From the NCBI GenBank assembly GCA_029862885.1, contig JAOTWM010000012.1, positions 1 through 30,346 on the forward strand: DNA of 30,346 bases, in the 5' to 3' direction. The notes under the pieces were generated by a model, which was given only the letters and a program-made list of their open reading frames with translations, was not told the origin of the DNA and made no database searches. A program made the position numbers and the translations under genes. This document shows, piece by piece, positions 400 through 25,515 of this stretch. The DNA comes from Gammaproteobacteria bacterium. GTDB lineage: Bacteria > Pseudomonadota > Gammaproteobacteria > Arenicellales > JAOTWM01. The stretch's first letter is position 1. Every line of letters starts with the position of its first letter.

Positions 400-1155
400 T
401 TAACTCAGGTGTTCACGATCAGTCAACTTGTTAAGTATTTTTGGCATAGATTCTCCTTTGAGTTGTAGTCTATGAGCGTTGTGCATTAATCGGTCGAGGA
501 TGGCGTCGGCGAGGGTGTTGTCACCGATGGTTGCATACCATTGATCAGTGGGGAGTTGGCTGAGCATCATGGTAGATGAGTGGCCATGTCGGTCATCCAT
601 GATCTCCATTAAATCGTGACGATGGGAGGTAGTGAGTGTTTCCAGTCCCCAATCATCGATGATTAATAATTGTATTTTGGCGATGCGGGTCAGAAGTTTG
701 TGGTAAGTGCCGTCGGCCTTGGCCTGGGTGAGTTCCAACATCAAGCGAGAGAGCCGGTAGTAACGCACGCTGATGCCGCGTAAACAGGCGTTGTGCCCGA
801 GTGCACAGGCGAGATAGGTTTTACCACTGCCACAGGGTCCGGTGATTAAGAGATTGTGGGCGCGTTGGATCCAATCCTCTTGAGCGAGCTGGGCGATGCG
901 TTTTTTAGTGATATTGCGCGCATGCTGATAGTCGATGTCCTGGATGGAGGCGGAGAGTTTAAAGCGGGCCTGACGGATGAGGCGTTGTTGTTTACGTTGT
1001 TCCCGGGTCAGGCATTCCTGTTCCAGCAACAGAGATAATCGCTCGACGAAGGTCAGTTCTTCATAGGTGCCGAGTTGTTCGAGCTGGGATGTGAGGGCAC
1101 TGGCCATGCCGGAGAGTTTGAGTTCACGTAGACGCTGGTTAAGTTGTGTATTCAT
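400..1155 (-). CDS. istB: IS21-family helper ATPase IstB
   Basis: Walker A GPCGSGKT and Walker B LLIIDD motifs. The gene lies immediately downstream of istA, typical of IstB. Confidence 0.9.
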   Translation of the reverse strand: MNTQLNQRLRELKLSGMASALTSQLEQLGTYEELTFVERLSLLLEQECLTREQRKQQRLIRQARFKLSASIQDIDYQHARNITKKRIAQLAQEDWIQRAHNLLITGPCGSGKTYLACALGHNACLRGISVRYYRLSRLMLELTQAKADGTYHKLLTRIAKIQLLIIDDWGLETLTTSHRHDLMEIMDDRHGHSSTMMLSQLPTDQWYATIGDNTLADAILDRLMHNAHRLQLKGESMPKILNKLTDREHLS

Positions 1156-1172
1156 AAGATTCAGATCCTGGT

Positions 1173-2714
1173 TTAGTGGAAGTTCCCGGGGCCGCGGATA
1201 TTGTCGTGGTCCTGGGGCAAGGTTGTGGTTAGGTTGATTTGTTCAGGCAATTGATCACGGTTGCTTTTCAAGATGGCTTTGATGTGTTTGAGGCGGTCGA
1301 GTTTTTCGCGATTGGCGAGGGCACAAGCACGGTTCAAACGCTGGGCCGGGTAGCTACGGCTGAGATTGAGTAATCCCAGGCAGACCCGATAAGCCTGTTC
1401 CGGATGGGGTTTGGATTGAAGATGTGCGGTGATCCAGATCAGACAATCGGGACCGATATCCCGGGCCCAGTTTTTTATTCTTCCCGGGGTCCATTGTTGG
1501 TGTTTTCGATGCCGTTTCGGCATGTGGTCGGGTTGAGTGGTGAAGCCTGGACGATAGCTGCGAGGATGAGAGGCAATCATTTTGTGCTGGAAATACAGGC
1601 TGATCAGGTGATCTGAGGCCTGTAGTTCCAGGGTTTCGCCCACCAACTGATGGGGGACGGAGTAGTGATGCAGTTCGTATTGGACGTGGTAATCGATATT
1701 GACCTTGACCGGTTTGATATCGACATAGCGGTAGGGATGAGGAGGCAACGGTTTTAGCGCGGGCTGGTCGAGTTGTTCGAAGGCCTGGCGGCGGTTGCCC
1801 GGCAGTTGTTTGAAGGGTTTGTGGTTGAGTTCATGGAGCAGAGCCTGGATACACTGATTGAGTTCGGCCAGGGAGAAGAAGGTGTGATGGCGCAGTCTAG
1901 CCAGTATCCAGCGCTCGACGATCTGCACCCCGGCTTCCACTTTGGCTTTGTCTTTGGGTTTAAAGGGTCGTGCCGGCACCACCGCCACTTGATAGTGTTC
2001 CGCCAGTTGCTGGTAGCTCGGATTCACATCGGGATCGTAGCGGCACGCTCGGGTGACGCCACCCTTTAAATTATCCGGCACCACGATCTCAGTCGAGCCG
2101 CCAAAGTACTGGAACGCCTGCACATGGCTTTGCAACCAGTCGGGCAAGGTTTGGGTTAGGGTGGCCTCGGCATAGGTGTAGTTGGAGGCGCCCAATACCG
2201 CCACAAAGACTTGCGCTTCCCGGATTTCGCCGGTACCCGAATGAATGATTGGGACGGTTTGTCCGGCATAGTCGACAAACAGCTTCTCACCGGCCTTGTG
2301 GGTTTGGCGCATGGAGCGCTTTTGCTTTTGCCGCCAATGCCGGTAGCGATCACAGAACTGGGAATAACTGTAACAGCGGTTGGGATACTGTTGGGTGTAT
2401 TCCTCCCATAACAGGAGTTTCGTAACCCCCTTACGTTTGAGTTCTTGGTGGATGCCTGGCCAATCCGGAACTTCAAAGCGACCGGAGATACGGGCGTCTG
2501 CATCGGGATAGAACAATCGGGCCAGTTTGTCGTCGCTGAGTTCCGGTGGCAGCGGCCAGCTGATTTCCAGCGCATCGGCTCTGGCCCGCAGTTTCTGGAT
2601 GGCGCCTACACTGAGCTTGGTGCTGGCCCGGATCTGGCGTATGGATAATCCGGCACTGTGCCGTAAACGTAATACATCTCGAATCTTTCGCATTGTGATT
2701 CTCTTGGTTGACAT
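1173..2714 (-). CDS. istA: IS21-family transposase IstA
   Basis: N-terminal HTH (TMRKIRDVLRL) and DDE-type catalytic core. The ATG at 2714 has GGAGAGG upstream; the ORF tracker's TTG at 2747 is less likely. The 3' end slightly overlaps istB. Confidence 0.88.
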   Translation of the reverse strand: MSTKRITMRKIRDVLRLRHSAGLSIRQIRASTKLSVGAIQKLRARADALEISWPLPPELSDDKLARLFYPDADARISGRFEVPDWPGIHQELKRKGVTKLLLWEEYTQQYPNRCYSYSQFCDRYRHWRQKQKRSMRQTHKAGEKLFVDYAGQTVPIIHSGTGEIREAQVFVAVLGASNYTYAEATLTQTLPDWLQSHVQAFQYFGGSTEIVVPDNLKGGVTRACRYDPDVNPSYQQLAEHYQVAVVPARPFKPKDKAKVEAGVQIVERWILARLRHHTFFSLAELNQCIQALLHELNHKPFKQLPGNRRQAFEQLDQPALKPLPPHPYRYVDIKPVKVNIDYHVQYELHHYSVPHQLVGETLELQASDHLISLYFQHKMIASHPRSYRPGFTTQPDHMPKRHRKHQQWTPGRIKNWARDIGPDCLIWITAHLQSKPHPEQAYRVCLGLLNLSRSYPAQRLNRACALANREKLDRLKHIKAILKSNRDQLPEQINLTTTLPQDHDNIRGPGNFH

Positions 2715-3109
2715 CGCCTCTCCAAAAAAAGTTGGAGAGGATATCAAATAGATTGAAAAACAATGCGTTACAAATCATTCCGGCTCATCGTGAACACCGA
2801 TTCCGGAAAAAACGGAAAAGTGTTCACGATGGACCGGAATCACTGTTCACACAAAACCGGAATCGGTGTTCACAATAAACCAGAATCACTGTTCACGCTC
2901 GGCCGGAATATGCACTAACTGTGGTAGGCATACACTTGACGTTTGCTGCCTCAAACCGAATGTCCGCAAAGTATTCCAGCCACATTTGCAAATTTCGACA
3001 TCCACATACTGCACGCGCGGTTTCCCACCGCCGACCAGGGCTTCTGATCCTGGCGCCAGAGTGTTCAGGTGTGTGGGCCCGGGATCTAACAAAGACGCTG
3101 ATATAGAAG

Positions 3110-5436: not shown

Positions 5437-6060
5437 ATGCAGATACTCTATGGGGCCAAGGGCGCGGGTTCGGTTGCTCCTCAAGCCTTGCTAACCCATC
5501 TAGAAGTGCCATTCGAGCTAAAGCTGATTAGCTTTGACGCAAACGAGCACCAGTCAGAGGCATTTCTTGCCGTCAACCCCCGGGGGCAGATCCCTGTGCT
5601 GGTTTTGGACGACAAAAGCGTCCTGACTGAATCGCTTGCCATCATGCTTCATGTCGCCGACAGCCACCTGTCCTCTGCATTGATTCCAGCACCGGGCAGT
5701 GCCGAGCGAGCCCAAGTGTATCGCTGGATGTCATTTACCGCGACGAATGTGTACGAGGGGCTCTTGCGTCTTCTATACCCAGATATGTACACGACCAACA
5801 GCGACCTGTCCAAAGTCGTAGAGTCGGCTGATCAGTATTTGAATTCAGCTTTTGGAATTCTCAATCAAGCGCTAAGTAAGGGGCCATGGTTGGTTGGAGG
5901 GCGTACGGGCGTCACCGATATCTATCTTGCGATGCTGCTGACTTGGTACCCTGATCAGCAGAGGCTATACGAAGTCTACACGAATCTGCAGCCGTCCTTG
6001 AAACAGACGTTGGCGCTCGAAGGTGTGACAAGGGTGTTTGAGGAAAATGAGTTGATCTAA
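5437..6060 (+). CDS. Glutathione S-transferase family protein
   Basis: Thioredoxin-like N-domain (QIPVLVLDD...ESLAIMLHV) and a helical C-domain. Length is 207 aa. Confidence 0.8.
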   Translation: MQILYGAKGAGSVAPQALLTHLEVPFELKLISFDANEHQSEAFLAVNPRGQIPVLVLDDKSVLTESLAIMLHVADSHLSSALIPAPGSAERAQVYRWMSFTATNVYEGLLRLLYPDMYTTNSDLSKVVESADQYLNSAFGILNQALSKGPWLVGGRTGVTDIYLAMLLTWYPDQQRLYEVYTNLQPSLKQTLALEGVTRVFEENELI

Positions 6061-6259: not shown

Positions 6260-6745
6260 TTGAACTTTGGCTCAGCCTATTCGTCACCTGACGACAAAAG
6301 CTTCATCGCGAAGTATCGTGCCTGCTGCCATTGCGGCGCGGTGCGGTACGAAGTTCGCGCCGATCCGGTCGACGCCAAGATTTGTCATTGTAGCGATTGC
6401 CAGATATTGCACGGCGCGCCCATGCAGTGGGCCGCAATTTTCCACAAAGAGGATGTCAGGTTCGCAACTGGGGCTGAGCATTTGCGATTCTATAACAGCG
6501 TCCTCAACCGCCATGAAAGACTCGTGCCCTGTAAGGTGGCCTGCGCATTGTGCGGTACGCTAATCGCCGATGAAGGGCGAAATATGTGGCTGGCCTTTCC
6601 CACGCTTTTCGATTTCGGCGCGCCGCCACAGGTGCCCGAAGCGTTCAGGCCGACCTGTCACCTCTTCTACGGCATGCGGGTGATGGATATCGTCGATGAG
6701 TTGCCGAAATGGTCTGGCCACAAAGATAAATCGAGGCGACTTTGA
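6260..6745 (+). CDS. GFA-family (glutathione-dependent formaldehyde-activating / CENP-V-like) protein
   Basis: CHCGAVRYEV...CHCSDCQ...C zinc-binding pattern of the GFA domain. TTG start with an AAGGAG Shine-Dalgarno 9 nt upstream. Confidence 0.8.
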   Translation: MNFGSAYSSPDDKSFIAKYRACCHCGAVRYEVRADPVDAKICHCSDCQILHGAPMQWAAIFHKEDVRFATGAEHLRFYNSVLNRHERLVPCKVACALCGTLIADEGRNMWLAFPTLFDFGAPPQVPEAFRPTCHLFYGMRVMDIVDELPKWSGHKDKSRRL

Positions 6746-6814
6746 TCTTCGGTCGGAATCGTTGCGTTGTGCCTAACCGACGTGTTCTCGACTCCTCCCG
6801 CACCGCCGGGAAAA

Positions 6815-7236
6815 GGGTCAGGTCTTGCAATCAAGCACCACCGCGATACACGTGGTGCGTGAGTCGACCGTTGCGTCTTGAGTTAGCGGGTGGTCTGTGC
6901 CAAATCGGCTCCCGCTGAGATCGTCGGGAAGATTTCTATCTAAATGACGCTGATCGTATCAAGTGGTTATTGCTATCGAGTCAGGTATGCCAACGCTTCA
7001 AATGGAGATGTCACGCGTACTGCCTGATGAGTAGTCGCTAACATATGGTAGTGGAAATGGTGGAAGGTTGTTTTTCGAATGGGATGCGCCGATTGAATAG
7101 GGTGTACACGCAGTATTTTATTTTAAAGTCAATTACTCGAGCGTGAGTCGAGCGCTAAAGAAAGCGGATTTGGGTGATGGATAGGCACCGGCATTGGTTG
7201 GGTTCGACTGATATGAGTGATTGCAAGACCTGACCC
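6815..7236. repeat. 422-bp element bounded by a perfect 19-bp inverted repeat, GGGTCAGGTCTTGCAATCA (6815-6833) and TGATTGCAAGACCTGACCC (7218-7236). MITE-like, non-coding.
   Basis: The perfect inverted repeat is read directly. The element has no credible ORF. A partial third match to the IR core (AGACCTGACCC) lies at 14733-14743. Confidence 0.5.
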
Positions 7237-7289
7237 TATTTCCTTTTTTCGTTGTTCATAGTATTTTGGTTGTTCATTGAGCTGCCGAG

Positions 7290-7442
7290 TCACGGCATCG
7301 AGCCGACACAAACAGCCGTTGGCGAGAGCGGTTCGGTACATATAGACTACCGGAGTTGGGGACCTCGCAGATCAGCACGGCCCCCTGGGTTCTTGGTGTT
7401 GCGGTATGGGGCCCAATTCATTCACGCCAATCTCATCAAACT
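7290..7442 (+). promoter_or_regulatory. Conserved ~140-nt element, copy A, ending 25 nt before the start codon of the Met/His-rich protein gene. Candidate cis-regulatory RNA or leader.
   Basis: About 70% identical to 10726-10880 (copy B). Both share tcacggcatcg, aacagYcgttggcgagag, ggagacctcRc, cccaattNatttcacgccaa. The terminal ttggcg/cgccaa can pair. Confidence 0.5.
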
Positions 7443-7454
7443 GGAGAAACAACC

Positions 7455-7871
7455 ATGAAAAAGATATATATATTAATCGTAACCGCATTTACGTTCGTAA
7501 TTGCATCTTCCGGATATACAGCTAATACCGAAGAGGAGGTATCGATGGACTCCTCATCGACTATGGAGATGAGCGAAGATATGTCGGGAATGATGGGCGG
7601 GATGCATCATAAAGGGGTGGAGCATCGGGGCATGATGGGTCATCACATGATGCATTCTGGCGTATCACCGGTAACCATCATGGTTCAACCCGGAATGATG
7701 CCGATGATGGGTCATGGCATGATGCACCGCGGAGAGAAGGGTGGTCATAAAGGGGGTGAAATGGGTCGGGGAAAAATGATGAAAGAACACATGGAACGCA
7801 TGGAGCAGCGGCTGAAAAATATCGAGGCATTGCTCAGTGAACTGGTAGAGCTGCAAAAAAAAGGCGAGTAG
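7455..7871 (+). CDS. Secreted Met/His-rich protein (PcoE/SilE-like composition) with a C-terminal coiled coil. Putative periplasmic Cu(I)/Ag(I)-binding protein.
   Basis: GGAGAAA Shine-Dalgarno 5 nt before the ATG. Signal peptide MKKIYILIVTAFTFVIASSGYTA. Mature part is dense in MxxM, HxxM and MMGHH motifs. The ORF tracker's upstream extension to 7356 only translates element A. Confidence 0.75.
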   Translation: MKKIYILIVTAFTFVIASSGYTANTEEEVSMDSSSTMEMSEDMSGMMGGMHHKGVEHRGMMGHHMMHSGVSPVTIMVQPGMMPMMGHGMMHRGEKGGHKGGEMGRGKMMKEHMERMEQRLKNIEALLSELVELQKKGE

Positions 7872-8232
7872 CCAACAGACAAGCATAAGCGGGTTTCGTT
7901 TTTGGAAGGGGCAAAACTACGATATGGGTTTTCCATAGCGTATCCGAAACTGCAAAAGGGTTTCGGCTTTAACCGAGCTGTTTATTCGGGTTTGAATCCA
8001 TGTCAGTGCTTTGGCCTTAATTTGTCAAGGTCTGAATCTGATCTTTCGATTCCGTTCGTTCAGTGCGATCTCATCTGATAGTTTGGGAAAGCGGCCATGC
8101 AACTGGTCGACCTATACGGCTGCAACTTGCCCGGAGCGGTCATTCGAGAAGATTCACTGGAGGGCGGTTCTCGGCACTTTTCGGAGGCTGGCTAGATTTG
8201 ATTGTTGGTTTCATTCGAGCGAACATCCGCTC

Positions 8233-9555
8233 ATGACTCCCGAGACTCATTTCGCTGAAAACGATGGCGTCAGCATCGCGTATCAAGTTTTCGGTGACGG
8301 CTCACAGGACCTGATATTCATACCGGGATGGTTATCGAATCTTGACATATTGTGGGAAGAGCCGAGGGTGGCTCGTTTCCTTCTGTCACTGGCGCGAATT
8401 TTTAGGGTTACTGTTATTGATAGACGCGGAACTGGGCTTTCCGATCGTGTCGCGCCCCCGACTCTAGAAGTTCAGATGGGCGATGTGACGGCGGTGATGG
8501 ATGCCGCAGGTTCCGAACGCGCAGCATTTCTCGGTAATTCCGAAGGCGGGAGTATGTGTGCGTTGTTCGCGGCGACCCATCCGGATCGAACAACGGCTCT
8601 AATTACGGTTGGTGGATATGCTAAATGGATAAAGTCTGACGATTATCCGTATGGAACGAAACCGAGTGAAGCTGAGCAGTGGTTTGAACAAGTTGAAAAC
8701 GAGTGGGGTGGTCCCATCGCAATCGACTTTATCTCACCGAGTTTGGCAAACGATGAAAAACACCGACACTGGTTGGCTAAATTTTACCGATCGAGTGCAA
8801 GCAAGGCGAACGCCATTGCAATGCTAAGAATGGGTGCGGATATTGACCTTCGAGCAATATTGCCGACCATCAATGTTCCAAGCTTGGTGCTTCAAGCCAA
8901 AGCCGACCTTACCAACTCATTGGATTCGGGTCGCGACCTCGCAAGCCGAATCCCAAATGCGAAACTTGTCGAAATGGAATGCAGAGATCACGTGCTATGG
9001 GGGGACTGCAGTGAAGTGATTATTGGTGAGATACAGAACTTTCTCGGCGAAAAACAGACGATTTCGGTCACTGATCGAGCATTAGCCACCGTATTGTTCA
9101 CTGACATAGTCGATTCAACACAACTTGCGAACGATTTGGGCGATGAAAAATGGAGCGATCTACTTGAGGGACATAATGAAGCGGTCAGAAGGCAGCTTGA
9201 AATATTCCGTGGCAACGAGGTAAAGACTACCGGTGACGGCTTTCATGCAACATTTGACGGGCCCGCTCGAGCAATCCAATGTGCAGCCTCGATACGAGAA
9301 GCGACACGTCAATTAGGTTTAAGTCTCCGAATTGGCATACATACTGGAGAATGTGAGATTCGTGGAGAATCACTTGAGGGGGTGGCGATTCACTTGGCGG
9401 CACGTGTATCAGGGATGGCTTCTGCCGGGGAAATTGTTGTGTCAAGAACAGTTAAGGACCTTGTTGCTGGGTCAGGAATTGAGTTTGAAGACTTTGGTGT
9501 TCATGCCCTTAAGGGAATCTCTGGTGAACAACAACTATTCAAGGTGGTGGCGTAG
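8233..9555 (+). CDS. Alpha/beta-hydrolase-fold domain fused to a class III adenylate/guanylate cyclase catalytic domain (LipJ/Rv1900c-type architecture).
   Basis: N-terminal half resembles alpha/beta hydrolases. C-terminal VLFTDIVDSTQLANDLGD...TTGDGFHATF...RIGIHTGE are cyclase CHD motifs. The start codon is uncertain; the frame is open back to 8011. Confidence 0.75.
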   Translation: MTPETHFAENDGVSIAYQVFGDGSQDLIFIPGWLSNLDILWEEPRVARFLLSLARIFRVTVIDRRGTGLSDRVAPPTLEVQMGDVTAVMDAAGSERAAFLGNSEGGSMCALFAATHPDRTTALITVGGYAKWIKSDDYPYGTKPSEAEQWFEQVENEWGGPIAIDFISPSLANDEKHRHWLAKFYRSSASKANAIAMLRMGADIDLRAILPTINVPSLVLQAKADLTNSLDSGRDLASRIPNAKLVEMECRDHVLWGDCSEVIIGEIQNFLGEKQTISVTDRALATVLFTDIVDSTQLANDLGDEKWSDLLEGHNEAVRRQLEIFRGNEVKTTGDGFHATFDGPARAIQCAASIREATRQLGLSLRIGIHTGECEIRGESLEGVAIHLAARVSGMASAGEIVVSRTVKDLVAGSGIEFEDFGVHALKGISGEQQLFKVVA

Positions 9556-9639: not shown

Positions 9640-10320
9640 ATGGCAACAATAAGACCCATGATCAAGGTTATCACCAACAAATACGCGTCCTCACCCTACA
9701 GTCGGAAAGGCATCATTGTGCTGGAGGAGAAGGGCCTACCCTATGAGCAGGAAAACATCGACCCGGATTTCCTGCCGGACGGGTTCGAGTCGATGAACCC
9801 CAACCTGCGGGCGTCCTTGTTGATCGATCAGGGCCAGATGATATTTGAGTCGGACAACATCGTAGACTATCTCTTGCGGACGTATCCGGGGGAGCGGTCA
9901 GCGGATGCGCCGGACCCGCCCCTGACCGAAACCATGACACGCCCGGATCACCACATCCACGATTCTATGATCCTGGTTACGATTGAAACTGTCCTGAATA
10001 GCGCGAATAACATATCATTTTTTGCCACTGGCGGAATCGACCCCGCGAAGATCGAGCCCTATGGGTGGATATGGGAACGGGACAAGGTCCGCATCGATTC
10101 CTGCATGACTTGGCTGGACCAGCCAGCAATACCCGAGGGATTTGCTCCTGGAGTTTTTTCCATCATGGATCTAAAAATGATGTGCGCGTTCCGGTGTTTA
10201 ACCCGATGCGCGAATGATGACTGGAACCCCGACTGGAGCAAATATCGAAATCTCGATTCGATTTATGCGTTTTATCGGGACCGACCCTCCATTGTGAAAA
10301 CTGACCCTGGGCTAGGATAG
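9640..10320 (+). CDS. GST N-terminal-domain (thioredoxin-like) family protein
   Basis: SPYSRKG...NPNLRASLLIDQGQMIFESDNIVDYL fits the GST_N fold. The C-terminal half is atypical. An alternative start lies at 9658. Confidence 0.6.
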   Translation: MATIRPMIKVITNKYASSPYSRKGIIVLEEKGLPYEQENIDPDFLPDGFESMNPNLRASLLIDQGQMIFESDNIVDYLLRTYPGERSADAPDPPLTETMTRPDHHIHDSMILVTIETVLNSANNISFFATGGIDPAKIEPYGWIWERDKVRIDSCMTWLDQPAIPEGFAPGVFSIMDLKMMCAFRCLTRCANDDWNPDWSKYRNLDSIYAFYRDRPSIVKTDPGLG

Positions 10321-12869: not shown

Positions 12870-13583
12870 TTAACAGCAAGCGCAAGCGACCGATCGCTCG
12901 GTCGGACCGCAGCACGCCTGTCGAGCTTGGCCTTGCTCCGGGTGACCCAGGTAGGTCTCGTCGGACAGGTAGAAGTTGGTGAACTTCTCCACAAAATCTT
13001 CTGCGACGGATTTCTTCGGCAGACCTGTGGCGAGTACATTCTGCTGCCACGCTTTGACCTTCGGGAACTCGGCCAAGAAGTCATAACCAGAGTGCTGCTG
13101 AATGATGGCCGCACGGTGCAGCAACGGCAACCATGCAATATCAACCATGCCAACCTTATCCCCCCTGAAGAATCGACCGTCACTCAGTCTCTTTTCGGCG
13201 GTTGCGAATGCCTCATTCAGCTTGGCGCTGCGCTCCACAAACGTGACTTGATCGGGGCTCCTCTGCGTCGAGCACTGGACAAGGTAGTTCTTTGTGGCCA
13301 GGTATGACCACGCCCGCTCTCGAGCCTTCTCGACGGGATCAGCAGGGAACAGCGGATCTCCGGCAGTCTCCTCGATGTACTCTACGATGGCATCGGATTC
13401 GTGAAGCGCGCGACCATCGTCGGTTATCAGGACCGGTACCTGGCCCAGCGGTGATATCTCAAGGAACCAATCGGGCTTGTCGCTGATATCGATATCCTCG
13501 ACCTCGTAGGGGACGTTCTTGGCCTCAAGCAGGGCCGTGATCCGCTGGACGAAAGGGCAAATTCCAGAGCTGACGATTTTCAT
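12870..13583 (-). CDS. Glutathione S-transferase (CPF, Grx-like type) with a Cys-rich C-terminal tail ...QACCGPTERSVACACC
   Basis: AGGAG Shine-Dalgarno 7 nt upstream. N-terminal ICPFVQR...GQVPVL...ESDAIVEYI GST_N fold. Six cysteines lie in the last 16 residues. Confidence 0.8.
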   Translation of the reverse strand: MKIVSSGICPFVQRITALLEAKNVPYEVEDIDISDKPDWFLEISPLGQVPVLITDDGRALHESDAIVEYIEETAGDPLFPADPVEKARERAWSYLATKNYLVQCSTQRSPDQVTFVERSAKLNEAFATAEKRLSDGRFFRGDKVGMVDIAWLPLLHRAAIIQQHSGYDFLAEFPKVKAWQQNVLATGLPKKSVAEDFVEKFTNFYLSDETYLGHPEQGQARQACCGPTERSVACACC

Positions 13584-13646: not shown

Positions 13647-14204
13647 TCAGCAGCAGTCGTCGTCCTTGAGTTCGTAGGCGCTCAGGTTGCCCCTCGCATC
13701 AATCTCCAGGGCACAACACCTCTGATAGAGCTCTCTAAGCATTGCCCGACCCCGCTGGACGCGGGACTTCGCTGCTGAGTGACTTAATCCCAGTCTATCC
13801 GCCAATTCTGTCTGCGGCACATCATCAAGATCGACGGCCTGCACGGCGTCCCGGTACTTCTCGGGGAGCTGCGAAATGAAGGGCCGGATACAGTTACCCA
13901 GCTCCTGTCGGACCTCCTCGTATGCTTCCACATCGTCCTCGGGGGCCAGCAGGATATCGGGTAATGATGCCTCCGGTCGCGCTCGACGGTAGTAGTCATT
14001 CAGGGTGTTCCGGGCCACTTGGTATAACCAGGGACGGAACTTCGATGGCTCCCGAACATCGTTGATGTGCTGGTGGGACTTGATCAACACCTCCTGAACC
14101 AGGTCATCAACATCCGCGCCACGCGGTAACCGGGCATTGAGGAACTGCTTGATCCCTTGCCCGTATTCCGACCATATCGTTGCGACATCAGTTGTTGAGC
14201 CCAT
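13647..14204 (-). CDS. ECF (sigma-70 family) sigma factor with a C-terminal Cys-rich extension (CC-x19-CC), CorE/ECF44-like
   Basis: Region 2 (DLVQEVLIKSHQ...FRPWLYQVARNTLNDYYRR) and region 4 (ELADRLGLSHSAAKSRVQRGRAMLRE) are present. Tail QRCCALEIDARGNLSAYELKDDDCC. The tracker's ORF extends to 14465 but would read through the MITE, so the ATG at 14204 is chosen. Confidence 0.8.
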   Translation of the reverse strand: MGSTTDVATIWSEYGQGIKQFLNARLPRGADVDDLVQEVLIKSHQHINDVREPSKFRPWLYQVARNTLNDYYRRARPEASLPDILLAPEDDVEAYEEVRQELGNCIRPFISQLPEKYRDAVQAVDLDDVPQTELADRLGLSHSAAKSRVQRGRAMLRELYQRCCALEIDARGNLSAYELKDDDCC

Positions 14205-14273
14205 AATCCAATTTTCATCCCGCATGCATCTTGCTGTAAAGCGAGAAATCGGGTGCGGTAAACGTCCGCTCTG

Positions 14274-14439
14274 GGTCCAGACTGTGTGAAAACTCAGAAT
14301 TGGAAAAAACATTTGGGACAGCACAACAATATTAGTCATTAACCCTTTGGTTCTAGTTTCTCTGCCCCACAACTGCCTTATATAACTCGAAAAATGGGAT
14401 AGCGTGACATCATAAATAGTTTTCACACAGCCTGGGTCG
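14274..14439. mobile_element. MITE-like element copy 2 (about 166 bp), same IR family as 10423-10589. It is inserted 70 bp upstream of the ECF sigma factor start.
   Basis: IRs cagactgtgtgaaaac (14278-14293) and gttttcacacagcctg (14420-14435). Internal blocks ttgggacag and cttata.aac...agcgtga are shared with copy 1. Confidence 0.6.
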
Positions 14440-14825
14440 GTAGCCGCCTTGTACCACAGTGGCATGAATGACGGCTTCGAGTATATTGCAGCCCGTTACA
14501 ATCTCACAGCGAATGACTGCTAAGGAAAAAGAAGACGATCACGCGTTATGAAAAAAGGCCCGCTTCTTGCCCATAGCGGAAGAAACGCTGCGGTGCGGCG
14601 AACGGCTCTTCTCGGCTGCGGTTTCAACCGGTCGATGCAACACATTGGTTAAATTGTTCGCATTGGAGAAGCAGACATTTTGAGGGCGCATGAATTTGCC
14701 TCCCTGATGCTAACCGGGCATTTCTAAATTCCAGACCTGACCCATTAAGCCACAATCACATTAAGCTGAACGAAATCCTTTTCCTTACCCGTTGTGAATA
14801 AAGCGAGTTATTTGGAGTTCTTTGA

Positions 14826-24858: not shown

Positions 24859-25515
24859 TTAAAGTTGCCGGCCGAGCCACCCGTCGCGCTGTTTAGTGGA
24901 TTTGCGATACAGCGCGGTAAATTCGGAGTCTATGGCCTGCTTGACTGCACCTAACCGCAACACGGCACTACTCCATGCGTCCAATTTCGGGTGGTCGCCA
25001 GGGTCTAAGAGCTGTCGTGCGGGTTTGAGAATGTCGAGCCGCGCAAATAAAGGTGCGAAGCACGCATCGACGAGGCCGGGTTCGGGTCCGTCGAAAAACA
25101 CGGCATCCGATTTTTTGTCCTCGAGGTAGTCAAACTTCTCGTCGAGATCGTACGCGGCGTCGTCGAACTCGGATTCGTCCGTTGCTGTAACGGCCCCAGA
25201 CAGATCCGCCAATACCGCCGCGCCGTACGCAATCATTGCTCGATGTCTGGCTCGTTGTAGCGGCTCCTCGGGCAATAGCGAATCCGACGCGATGTCGTTC
25301 AGGTACTCGTTGATGACTGCAGATTCAAAAACAATATGCTGGTCATCTATGCGCAGGATCGGGACCCGACCAAGCGGCGACACGTCCTCGAACCAGGGCG
25401 GTGGGTTAGTGATATCGATTATGGTTAGGCGATACGCAATGTCCTTAAGTCGCAACACGACTTCCGATGACTGCACGAACGGACAGAGCGCGATGCTGAT
25501 TAATTCCAAGTCCAT
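24859..25515 (-). CDS. Glutathione S-transferase (CPF, Grx-like type)
   Basis: N-terminal LCPFVQSSEVVL...GRVPIL...ESAVINEYL GST_N fold. Lies 35 bp downstream of the AAA gene on the same strand. Confidence 0.8.
   Translation of the reverse strand: MDLELISIALCPFVQSSEVVLRLKDIAYRLTIIDITNPPPWFEDVSPLGRVPILRIDDQHIVFESAVINEYLNDIASDSLLPEEPLQRARHRAMIAYGAAVLADLSGAVTATDESEFDDAAYDLDEKFDYLEDKKSDAVFFDGPEPGLVDACFAPLFARLDILKPARQLLDPGDHPKLDAWSSAVLRLGAVKQAIDSEFTALYRKSTKQRDGWLGRQL

What the first reader, a model, noticed from the sequence alone, without database searches (positions are those of the whole stretch)
7455..7871. Secreted Met/His-rich protein with a C-terminal coiled coil: putative Cu(I)/Ag(I) sponge
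The mature protein after the signal peptide is about 25% Met with clustered MxxM, HxxM and MMGHHMMH motifs. This composition resembles PcoE/SilE-type periplasmic metal-binding proteins. It ends in a heptad-like helix (EHMERMEQRLKNIEALLSELVELQKK) that suggests oligomerisation. The gene is AT-rich relative to its flanks, suggesting acquisition.
Basis: partly seen in the sequence, partly recalled or inferred. Interest (0 to 1): 0.55.

Follow-up and report, generated by a model that had tools for sequence, protein, structure and literature searches.

The report
Secreted methionine-rich protein, likely copper-binding
This is a real gene for a small secreted, mostly disordered protein that is one-fifth methionine and ends in a highly conserved coiled-coil helix; it belongs to an unnamed protein family whose distant members sit inside copper-resistance operons, so it probably buffers copper in the periplasm, although nothing in this window itself links it to copper.

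Summary
The ORF at 7455-7871 (+) is a real, conserved gene: about 52 full-length homologues and dN/dS of 0.20-0.29. It encodes a Sec-type signal peptide, an ~80-residue Met/His/Gly-rich region that AlphaFold2 models as disordered, and a confident C-terminal heptad helix.

Three reader details need correcting. The mature protein is 20% Met, not about 25%. The MxxM/HxxM counts are no higher than composition predicts. The low GC comes from ATG codons, not from acquisition.

It is not a SilE/PcoE, CopM or MrpX homologue, and it has no Pfam, NCBIfam or PDB match.

A profile search found 148 cluster representatives at E<=1e-3. The sequences I read are small signal-peptide-bearing Met-rich proteins ending in HMxxMExRLANIEALLxELVELQK, mostly from sulfur-oxidising Gammaproteobacteria.
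- In 13 of 62 non-redundant genome loci the gene lies in a copper island. In 7 of them it follows a MerR-type promoter and precedes merR and a Cu-type P1B ATPase.
- In 11 other loci it lies in a probable sigma-54 operon with DUF4399.
- The window's own subfamily is mostly stand-alone, and the window holds no copper gene.

Best reading (confidence 0.55): an oligomeric periplasmic Cu(I)/Ag(I) buffer. It is analogous to SilE/PcoE but belongs to an undescribed family.

The parts
7443..7448 (+). Ribosome-binding site GGAGAA, 8 nt before the ATG
   Evidence: Read directly from the sequence. The GGA of this site is nearly invariant in the alignment of 11 subfamily upstream regions.
7455..7871 (+). 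Coding sequence, 138 aa plus stop codon: secreted Met/His/Gly-rich protein
   Evidence: ORF listing. About 52 full-length homologues at 48-83% identity, all unnamed. dN/dS 0.20-0.29.
7455..7514 (+). Predicted Sec signal peptide (residues 1-20, MKKIYILIVTAFTFVIASSG). Cleavage is most likely after the invariant G20, at the consensus S-A-G
   Evidence: Hydropathy and the -3/-1 rule. AF2 helix at residues 2-19. G20 is invariant in 46 sequences. The cleavage site is inferred; SignalP was not run.
7515..7760 (+). Predicted disordered region (residues 21-102): an acidic Ser/Glu-rich start followed by Met/His/Gly-rich sequence (23.6% Met over residues 24-112)
   Evidence: AF2 pLDDT is below 50 for residues 23-62 and about 50-55 for 63-100. 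Composition.
7638..7718 (+). Conserved core of this subfamily, GHHMMHSGVSPVTIMVQPGMMPMMGHG (residues 62-88). It includes an internal repeat, MMGHHMMH / MMGHGMMH
   Evidence: H64, S71, P72, P79, P83 and M85 are invariant, and H63, M65, G69, T74, G80 and M84 are at least 90% conserved, in 46 sequences. DNA direct repeat 7632-7654 / 7704-7726 at 91% identity.
7761..7862 (+). C-terminal amphipathic heptad helix (residues 103-136). This is the module that defines the wider family, HMxxMExRLANIEALLxELVELQK
   Evidence: AF2 helix with pLDDT about 90 over residues 111-130. a/d positions are 97-100% hydrophobic in 139 sequences. BLASTP E = 2e-10 and 63% identity to the Sedimenticola selenatireducens homologue over this stretch only.
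7788..7805 (+). H112-M113-E-R-M116-E117: near-invariant His/Met/Glu cluster at the start of the heptad core, a candidate inter-helix metal site
   Evidence: H 97%, M 95%, M 99% and E 98% conserved in 139 sequences. The role as a metal site is inference.
7962..7980 (+). Weak terminator-like hairpin about 90 nt after the stop codon
   Evidence: Consensus scan only; 4 sites found in the region against 1.4 expected. Low confidence.
6808..7243 (.). Context, not part of the gene: a 436-bp stretch bounded by 26-nt inverted repeats, 212 nt upstream of the start codon. It holds stop-interrupted ORF fragments
   Evidence: Inverted repeat at 92% complementarity. Translation. No Pfam hit. The resemblance to a transposase is from memory only.

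Best explanation
The gene encodes a periplasmic, intrinsically disordered Met/His-rich protein that binds soft monovalent metal ions, most likely Cu(I) and by chemistry also Ag(I).

Proposed mechanism:
- Many weak thioether and imidazole sites capture the metal.
- The C-terminal coiled-coil helix assembles the protein into an oligomer, so several metal-catching arms hang from one stalk.
- The protein would then act as a buffer or hand-off point for copper in the periplasm.

It is the stand-alone representative of an undescribed family that has a variable metal-binding head and a constant C-terminal HMxxMExRLANIEALLxELVELQK module. Other members of that family are co-transcribed with copper-export and copper-oxidation genes.

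Shown here: the gene is real and under selection; it has signal-peptide features; the middle is predicted disordered; the heptad helix is conserved; the protein belongs to the family; distant family members are linked to copper operons.

Inferred: metal binding, metal specificity, oligomerisation, and transfer of the copper role from the distant members to this subfamily.
For: 1. Composition. The mature protein is 20% Met, 8.7% His and 15.7% Gly with no Cys. Met-rich segments are known to recruit Cu(I) transiently (CueO Met-rich domain, PMC11494321). Disordered His/Met proteins are known periplasmic Ag/Cu sponges (SilE/PcoE, PMC5008109).

2. Structure. AF2 shows only a signal helix and a confident C-terminal helix, and a low-confidence middle.

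3. Family. A profile search of 1.84 billion proteins gave 148 cluster representatives at E <= 1e-3. The 40 or so sequences I read are all signal-peptide-bearing and Met-rich (MPMMG, MMNPEMM repeats), or occasionally Cys-rich, and all end in the same helix.

4. Context of distant members.
- 13 of 62 non-redundant genome loci show the same-strand order Cys-rich protein, multicopper oxidase, cytochrome c, DUF411/CopG, DUF4399 or DUF302, Met-rich gene, MerR, P1B ATPase, SHOCT.
- 17 of 62 loci have at least one copper marker gene within 5 kb.
- The loci come from Sedimenticola, Thiotrichaceae, Thiotrichales, Ca. Endoriftia and uncultured Gammaproteobacteria.

5. Regulation of distant members. In 7 of these loci a MerR-type promoter (TTGACC, a dyad, a 19-20 bp spacer) lies 74-87 nt upstream of the Met-rich gene. 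The downstream ATPase passes the curated cut-off of the copper P1B-1 model TIGR01511 (599 bits against 397).

6. Bridges to the window's own subfamily.
- A SHOCT membrane-protein gene from the same cluster as those in the copper islands lies directly upstream in L001 and L003.
- In Arenicellales (L004-L006) the gene sits between cytochrome c genes. It lies 2-6 kb from a tandem-CusF protein, an outer-membrane efflux protein, a multicopper oxidase and a cupredoxin.

7. The rival oxidant-scavenger system is absent. No MsrP or MsrQ occurs in 763 kb of family loci.
Against: - No copper-related gene occurs anywhere in the 30 kb window.
- The window subfamily has a different, unrelated neighbourhood in each of about 9 distinct contexts.
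- No MerR-type operator or sigma-54 promoter lies upstream of the window gene.
- Homology to the copper-linked members rests on the ~32-residue C-terminal helix plus shared composition. The helix could be a generic oligomerisation module attached to heads with different functions.
- The MerR regulators in the islands score best against ZntR-type models and reach no curated cut-off, so the metal they sense is not established.
- Metal binding and oligomerisation are untested.
- MxxM and HxxM spacing shows no enrichment over chance.
Confidence: 0.55

Rival explanations
1. It is a sacrificial periplasmic oxidant scavenger like MrpX. Its many methionines would be oxidised by hypochlorite or other reactive species and re-reduced by a periplasmic methionine sulfoxide reductase.
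For: MrpX is also a small signal-peptide-bearing periplasmic protein with 20% Met (PMC4436054), the same Met fraction as here. Some family hosts (Sedimenticola) are, from my own knowledge,chlorate or selenate respirers. The window gene has no copper context.
Against: - MrpX is defined by the yedYZ(msrPQ)-mrpX operon. tblastn with E. coli MsrP and MsrQ found nothing in all 77 loci, 763 kb in total.
- The presumed MrpX of E. coli 536 PAI-II lies next to its molybdopterin oxidoreductase and cytochrome b genes. It is a pentapeptide MxKDx repeat protein without any C-terminal helix.
- hhalign of the family profile against that protein gives probability 0.6%.
- The conserved His residues (H63, H64, H98, H112) are not needed for oxidant scavenging.
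- Distant relatives lie in Cu-ATPase and multicopper-oxidase operons.
Confidence: 0.12
2. It is a periplasmic binder or envelope-stress chaperone for divalent metals (Zn, Cd, Ni or Cu(II)), working mainly through its His and Glu residues. It would be functionally like ZraP rather than a Cu(I) sponge.
For: - The protein has 10 His and 17 acidic residues in the mature part.
- The MerR regulators beside distant relatives score best against ZntR models (91-95 bits, below cut-off).
- A second context type has a sigma-54 response regulator and histidine kinase next to the gene. A TGGCAC-N5-YTGCA promoter is present in 9 of those 11 loci. From my own knowledge this resembles zraSR-zraP.
- SilE itself binds Cu(II), Zn(II) and Ni(II) at lower stoichiometry (PMC5008109).
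Against: - Met, a soft ligand that favours Cu(I) and Ag(I), dominates at 23 Met against 10 His. Most distant members have almost no His.
- The adjacent ATPase is of the copper subtype.
- Multicopper oxidase, CopG/DUF411 and CusF neighbours are copper-specific.
- There is no hit to the Pfam families that hold ZraP, CpxP and Spy.
Confidence: 0.12
3. It has a non-metal role. The conserved C-terminal helix would be the functional part, for example docking to an envelope partner, forming a scaffold, or inserting into the membrane. The Met-rich region would be a flexible low-complexity spacer.
For: The helix is by far the most conserved element. The heads vary widely in length and repeat type. The genomic context of the window subfamily is uninformative. 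The only weak library hits are to coiled-coil proteins: PspB at 19 bits, and YadA and KCNQ1 coiled coils at E about 0.7.
Against: A mere spacer would not keep 20% Met across hundreds of diverged sequences, nor keep invariant His, Met and Pro positions in the core. Some members replace the Met-rich head with Cys-rich ones, so the alternative heads also consist of metal-ligand residues. The copper-operon linkage of distant members also argues against this reading.
Confidence: 0.1

Closest known systems
SilE / PcoE (periplasmic Ag(I)/Cu(I) 'molecular sponge' proteins of the sil and pco operons)
   Same: Similar size (138 aa against 143 aa) and a Sec signal peptide. Both are His- and Met-rich with no Cys in the mature part. 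SilE is disordered in the apo form, and this protein is predicted to be disordered. PcoE dimerises on Cu(I) binding, and this protein carries a built-in coiled-coil helix (PMC5008109).
   Different: No sequence homology. The SilE motifs MxxHx6HxxM and HxxMxxxHxxM are absent. Met content is much higher and the protein is Gly-rich. It has a constitutive C-terminal heptad helix rather than metal-induced helices. It is not in a sil or pco operon and has no CusRS-type regulator nearby. No match in 72,556 plasmids.
MrpX (methionine-rich periplasmic hypochlorite scavenger of the yedYZ-mrpX operon; pentapeptide MxKDx repeat family TIGR02953)
   Same: A small secreted protein with about 20% Met and many charged residues (PMC4436054).
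   Different: No msrPQ/yedYZ gene near any family member. No MxKDx repeats and no TIGR02953 hit. hhalign probability 0.6% against the presumed E. coli 536 MrpX. That E. coli 536 MrpX-like protein lacks the C-terminal helix. This family has conserved His residues and copper-operon relatives.
Met-rich domains of copper-handling proteins (the CueO Met-rich insert; the His/Met-rich region of CopI; from my own knowledge also the PcoA/CopA MxxM repeats)
   Same: Flexible Met/His/Gly-rich sequence in the periplasm, proposed to bind Cu(I) transiently and pass it on (PMC11494321). Multicopper oxidases in the family's copper islands carry such inserts themselves.
   Different: Here the Met-rich segment is a free-standing protein with its own oligomerisation helix, not a loop of an enzyme.
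PspB (leucine-zipper membrane protein of the phage-shock system)
   Same: Weak similarity of the C-terminal helix to the PspB leucine zipper: 19 bits, E = 0.0013.
   Different: Far below the curated cut-off of 51.7 bits. There is no psp context. The N-terminal hydrophobic segment here has signal-peptide features with possible signal peptidase I sites, rather than the transmembrane anchor I expect of PspB (from my own knowledge).

Membership tests
SilE/PcoE | Sequence homology to SilE/PcoE (the two share 48% identity; NCBIfam NF047789 AgBindSilE) | tested here: not met
   The SilE model recognises SilE at 289 bits but does not list the window protein at E <= 10. hhalign probability 1.2%. BLASTP E = 0.08.
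SilE/PcoE | Repeated motifs MxxHx5-6HxxM and HxxMxxxHxxM | tested here: not met
   A regex search finds 0 occurrences of either motif. The motifs are as given in PMC5008109.
SilE/PcoE | Encoded in a sil or pco operon under a CusRS/SilRS/PcoRS-type two-component system | tested here: not met
   No efflux, multicopper-oxidase or two-component genes in the window.
SilE/PcoE | Exported to the periplasm and disordered in the apo form | tested here: inconclusive
   Signal-peptide features and low AF2 confidence for residues 23-100 are consistent with this, but they are predictions only.
SilE/PcoE | Binds several Ag(I)/Cu(I) ions and folds on binding | not testable with these tools
   Needs purified protein.
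MrpX / pentapeptide MxKDx repeat proteins | Gene in an operon with yedYZ (msrPQ) | tested here: not met
   tblastn of E. coli MsrP and MsrQ against the window and 76 family loci (763 kb): no hit.
MrpX / pentapeptide MxKDx repeat proteins | Sequence similarity to MrpX-type proteins (TIGR02953) | tested here: not met
   No TIGR02953 hit for the window protein, whereas the presumed E. coli 536 MrpX scores 35 bits. hhalign probability 0.6%. The Azospira MrpX sequence itself was not available.
MrpX / pentapeptide MxKDx repeat proteins | Control by SigF/NrsF and induction by reactive chlorine species | not tested
   An ECF-type sigma factor gene lies 6 kb away (13647-14465), but no link to this gene was examined. 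Induction needs an experiment.
CopM (DUF305) | DUF305 domain (PF03713) | tested here: not met
   Pfam scan at E <= 10 lists only a sub-threshold Roadblock/LC7 hit.
ZraP/CpxP/Spy periplasmic chaperones | LTXXQ / Metal_resist domains | tested here: not met
   No such Pfam hit for the window protein or for any of 43 family members.
Unnamed family of secreted Met-rich proteins with the C-terminal HMxxMExRLANIEALLxELVELQK module (defined here) | C-terminal ~30-residue module at the very end of the protein | tested here: met
   Window residues 108-136 are MMKEHMERMEQRLKNIEALLSELVELQKK. Profile hits reach E = 1e-8 to 1e-14 for proteins that share only this part. Pairwise E = 2e-10.
Unnamed family of secreted Met-rich proteins with the C-terminal HMxxMExRLANIEALLxELVELQK module (defined here) | N-terminal signal peptide followed by a Met-rich low-complexity region | tested here: met
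Unnamed family of secreted Met-rich proteins with the C-terminal HMxxMExRLANIEALLxELVELQK module (defined here) | Location in a copper island or a sigma-54/DUF4399 operon | tested here: not met
   True for 13 and 11 of 62 loci respectively, but not for the window. It is not a universal feature of the family.

The most novel reading that the evidence does not exclude
The C-terminal module is a previously undescribed oligomerising metal-site domain. In this reading the near-invariant His-Met-x-x-Met-Glu layer lines the core of a parallel coiled coil and forms a Cu(I) site. The helix bundle tethers several disordered Met-rich arms, making a multivalent thioether-only copper trap. Sulfur-oxidising Gammaproteobacteria might favour such a trap because cysteine-based copper ligands would react with periplasmic sulfur intermediates. 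The window gene would then be a His-enriched, stand-alone branch of this system, with its own still unknown regulation.
Probability: 0.25. Interest if true: 0.65.

Novelty: new variant of a known kind. Interest (0 to 1): 0.47.

Why it matters
Periplasmic copper buffering by disordered Met/His proteins is so far known mainly from the plasmid-borne SilE/PcoE pair of enterobacteria. This family would be an independent solution to the same problem, with a different architecture: a disordered head on a fixed coiled-coil stalk.

- It is found mostly in sulfur-oxidising Gammaproteobacteria, including animal symbionts such as Ca. Endoriftia.
- It has no Pfam or NCBIfam model, and every member that carries a source name is called 'hypothetical protein'.
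- Defining it would improve the annotation of these copper islands.
- It would also give a compact ~30-residue module to test for metal-dependent oligomerisation.
- One cultured host, Sedimenticola selenatireducens DSM 17993, carries the gene directly behind a MerR-type promoter and ahead of merR and copA. The copper hypothesis can therefore be tested directly in that organism.

Tried and rejected
- Pfam, NCBIfam and PDB sequence searches with the single protein, the family profile and 43 family members gave nothing above threshold.
- Rfam on 6700-8300 gave nothing.
- tblastn against 72,556 plasmids gave no match.
- The search for related loci with the full-length family alignment A2 failed because it has no conserved stretch. 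An alignment of the C-terminal 30-mers (A3) worked.
- Fold search was not run. The AF2 model (mean pLDDT 60) has only two helices, so matches would be meaningless.
- I looked for an MrpX sequence next to plasmid msrPQ copies in E. coli, Azospirillum and Amphritea and found none. blastn for a second msrP copy in E. coli genomes found only the K-12 type. The presumed MrpX was finally found by reading PAI-II of E. coli 536.
- The paper's supplements were not available.
- Scans of the window's upstream region found no sigma-70-like promoter, sigma-54 promoter or MerR-type operator.
- The idea that the 436-bp repeat-flanked stretch upstream is a decayed IS200/RAYT-type element got no Pfam support. 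It remains a recollection only.
- The ORF being spurious is rejected.

Full report
**The observation.** The window holds an ATG-initiated ORF at exactly 7455-7871 (+), 138 codons, with GGAG 8 nt upstream.
- The N-terminus (MKK, then a 14-residue hydrophobic core, then A-S-S-G) has the three parts of a Sec signal peptide. It offers four positions that satisfy the -3/-1 rule. It has no lipobox Cys and no twin-arginine motif.
- The mature protein is 20.0% Met, 15.7% Gly, 13% Glu and 8.7% His. Met reaches 23.6% over residues 24-112.
- MMGHHMMH and the MxxM/HxxM motifs are present. In 2,000 composition-preserving shuffles, equal or higher counts occur in 14-73% of cases. The motifs therefore follow from the composition.
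- The 'AT-rich, hence acquired' remark does not hold. The ORF GC is 47.5% against 48.5-50.8% in the flanks. 14% of equal-sized tiles in the window are as low or lower. The ORF is 50.4% GC once its 24 ATG codons are set aside, and its GC3 lies within the neighbours' range.

**The gene is real.** A search of 5.8 billion clustered proteins returned about 52 full-length homologues of 130-168 aa at 48-83% identity. None has a name or a Pfam domain. The window itself is a Gammaproteobacteria MAG contig, and a close relative comes from an Arenicellales MAG.
- Against 10 orthologues, dN/dS is 0.20-0.29 at dS of 0.6-1.0.
- Two blocks are conserved in the alignment. One is a central GHHMMHSGVSPVTIMIQPGMMPMMGHG, with S71, P72, P79, P83 and M85 invariant. 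The other is the C-terminal HMERMEQRLANIEALLSELVELQK.

**Structure.** AlphaFold2 on the 46-sequence alignment gave a mean pLDDT of 60. It models a helix at residues 2-19 (the signal peptide) and a helix at 103-136, with pLDDT about 90 over residues 111-130. pLDDT is below 50 for residues 23-62 and about 50-55 up to residue 100.
- In 139 unique C-terminal modules the heptad a/d positions (113, 116, 120, 123, 127, 130) are 97-100% hydrophobic.
- The e and g positions 126, 131 and 133 are also hydrophobic.
- H112, M113, M116, E117, N122, I123 and E124 are 92-100% conserved.
- This pattern fits a coiled coil. The conservation is tighter than a plain zipper needs, which makes a His/Met/Glu inter-helix site plausible. 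That last point is inference.

**What it is not.**
- Pfam, NCBIfam and PDB give no significant match. The best hit is PspB at 19 bits against a cut-off of 51.7, on the helix only.
- SilE: the sequence I used is 100% identical to annotated silE. It scores 289 bits on the NCBIfam SilE model. The window protein is not listed by that model. hhalign of the family profile against SilE gives probability 1.2% over the signal peptide only. The SilE motifs described in PMC5008109 are absent.
- CopM: no DUF305 hit in Pfam.
- MrpX, the hypochlorite-scavenging periplasmic peptide with 20% Met (PMC4436054), is the main functional rival. It is defined by the yedYZ-mrpX operon. No MsrP or MsrQ homologue occurs in the window or in 76 family loci, 763 kb in total.
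- I located the presumed MrpX of E. coli 536 PAI-II next to its molybdopterin oxidoreductase and cytochrome b genes. It is a pentapeptide MxKDx repeat protein without any C-terminal helix. It is unrelated to the family profile, with hhalign probability 0.6%.

**The wider family.** A profile search of 1.84 billion cluster representatives found 148 proteins at E <= 1e-3. Most match only the last ~60 profile positions.
- The 40 or so sequences I read are 80-280 aa proteins with a signal peptide. Their Met-rich repeats are MPMMG, GGMPMMQGQP or MMNPEMMQ, or in a few cases Cys-rich stretches. All end with the same module.
- None of 43 members hits any Pfam or NCBIfam family. The members that carry a source name are all 'hypothetical protein'.
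- A scan of one genome per GTDB species with the module found 62 loci. Most are in sulfur-oxidising Gammaproteobacteria. These include Sedimenticola (with S. selenatireducens DSM 17993), Thiohalophilus, Thiolapillus, Chromatiaceae, Thiotrichaceae, Ca. Endoriftia persephone and a bivalve symbiont.

**Context of the wider family.** I clustered the neighbouring ORFs across 62 non-redundant loci (61 fetched loci plus the window itself) and annotated the recurrent clusters. Two arrangements recur.
- *Type A (13 loci).* The order on one strand is a Cys-rich ~125-aa protein, multicopper oxidase, cytochrome c, DUF411/CopG, DUF4399 or DUF302, the Met-rich gene, MerR, a P1B ATPase with HMBD and YHS domains, and a SHOCT membrane protein.
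  - In 7 of these loci a MerR-type promoter lies 74-87 nt upstream of the Met-rich gene. It reads TTGACC-TGTGYG..CGCACA-GGTTGTACGMT, with a dyad inside a 19-20 bp spacer.
  - The ATPase passes the curated cut-off of the copper-type model TIGR01511 (599 bits against 397).
  - The MerR proteins are of the heavy-metal type, but their specificity is unresolved.
- *Type B (11 loci).* A histidine kinase and a sigma-54 response regulator lie next to a small secreted protein, the Met-rich gene and DUF4399. A TGGCAC-N5-YTGCA promoter is present in 9 of the 11.
- In all, 17 of 62 loci have a copper marker gene within 5 kb. My rough estimate of the chance rate is 1-2%; this is an inference, not a computed background.

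**Context of the window's own subfamility and of the window.** The subfamily is mostly stand-alone.
- Its neighbours differ between loci: GSTs, a GFA enzyme, adenylate cyclases, a CBS protein, an AcrB-type pump and NirK.
- There are two bridges to the copper-linked members. A SHOCT gene from the same cluster as those in the copper islands lies directly upstream in L001 and L003. In Arenicellales (L004-L006) the gene sits between cytochrome c genes. It lies 2-6 kb from a tandem-CusF protein, an outer-membrane efflux protein, a multicopper oxidase and a cupredoxin.
- The window itself holds no copper gene. It carries IS21, an EEP-family phosphatase, four GSTs, GFA, a hydrolase-cyclase fusion, a dioxygenase, a sigma factor, a deacetylase and others.
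- No MerR-type operator or sigma-54 promoter lies upstream of the window gene.

**Conclusion.** The best-supported reading is an exported, disordered Met/His-rich binder of Cu(I), and by chemistry Ag(I), that is oligomerised by a conserved C-terminal coiled coil.
- It works like SilE/PcoE and like the Met-rich domain of CueO (PMC11494321).
- It is not a member of those families. It belongs to an undescribed family whose distant members are co-transcribed with copper export genes.
- The copper role is transferred to this gene by homology over the ~32-residue module plus shared composition, with only weak local context. For that reason confidence is 0.55.
- The rivals are an MrpX-like oxidant scavenger, a divalent-metal or envelope-stress protein, and a helix-centred non-metal role. 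None is excluded, but each is contradicted by at least one tested feature.

Noticed in passing
window 400-2747 (-): An IS21-family insertion sequence. istB (IstB_IS21, E = 8e-72) is at 400-1155, and istA (rve plus Mu-transposase C-terminal domain) is at 1173-2747.
   Followed up: partly
window 6808-7243: A 26-nt inverted repeat (92% complementary) bounds 384 nt holding stop-interrupted ORF pieces (…HAYCLMSSR*…GMRRLNRVYTQYF…). From memory these resemble an IS200/REP-associated tyrosine transposase, but Pfam gives no hit. The stretch occupies the position where relatives L001 and L003 carry a SHOCT gene.
   Followed up: partly
window 7632-7654 and 7704-7726: A 23-nt direct repeat (91% identity) inside the gene encodes MMGHHMMH and MMGHGMMH. 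This points to an internal duplication of an 8-residue unit.
   Followed up: no
window 5437-6060, 9640-10320, 12870-13583 (-), 24859-25515 (-), 6260-6745: Four glutathione S-transferase genes and a GFA-family gene lie within 20 kb. GST and GFA genes also recur near subfamily members in L012, L014 and L004.
   Followed up: no
window 8011-9555 (+); also L012/L013, L017, L003: An alpha/beta-hydrolase fused to an adenylate/guanylate cyclase domain lies just downstream of the gene. Cyclase genes also lie next to the homologue in three other loci. This may be coincidence in cyclase-rich genomes.
   Followed up: no
L042 5538-5570 (Sedimenticola selenatireducens DSM 17993); also L033, L038, L046, L068, L074, L076: A conserved MerR-type promoter (TTGACC, a dyad, a 19-20 bp spacer) lies directly upstream of the Met-rich gene, which is followed by merR and a Cu-type P1B ATPase. 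The Met-rich gene would be the first gene of this metal-regulated operon.
   Followed up: yes
L022, L026, L027, L030, L034, L035, L056, L060, L069: Sigma-54 promoter matches (TGGCAC-N5-YTGCA, 9-10 of 11 specified bases) lie upstream of the probable operon of small His/Asp/Glu-rich secreted protein, Met-rich protein and DUF4399. The operon is next to a sigma-54 response regulator and a histidine kinase.
   Followed up: partly
L059 4068-4445 and 9 other copper-island loci: A conserved secreted Cys-rich protein of about 125 aa (…CGDCPSDEGCSGGGCLACH…) lies at the upstream end of the copper islands in most of these loci. It has no Pfam or NCBIfam match.
   Followed up: partly
protein P0160 (family member): A hybrid protein carries MPMM repeats, KCGG repeats and the C-terminal module. 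One member of alignment A2, not identified, weakly hits the HvfA RiPP metallophore model (E = 0.008). This hints that the module can carry Cys-based copper-binding heads as well.
   Followed up: no
alignment A4 (upstream regions of 11 subfamily loci); window about 7370-7454: A conserved ~90-nt leader (TAAATCAAC[AC]TGGAGC … GTTGCGC … CAACTTG.TATCAA.CACCAAACTGGAGAA) is only partly kept in the window. No known promoter type or Rfam family was recognised. The AAC…CG spacing hints at an ECF-type promoter.
   Followed up: partly
L049: This contig is labelled Candidatus Bathyarchaeota, but its family protein is very similar to those of the Gammaproteobacteria MAGs L045 and L048. Contamination of the bin is likely.
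   Followed up: no
L082 16423-16665 (-) (E. coli 536 PAI-II): An 80-aa hypothetical protein lies next to a molybdopterin oxidoreductase and a cytochrome b. It is a pentapeptide MxKDx repeat protein, presumably the UPEC MrpX of PMC4436054, and RefSeq annotates it only as hypothetical.
   Followed up: yes
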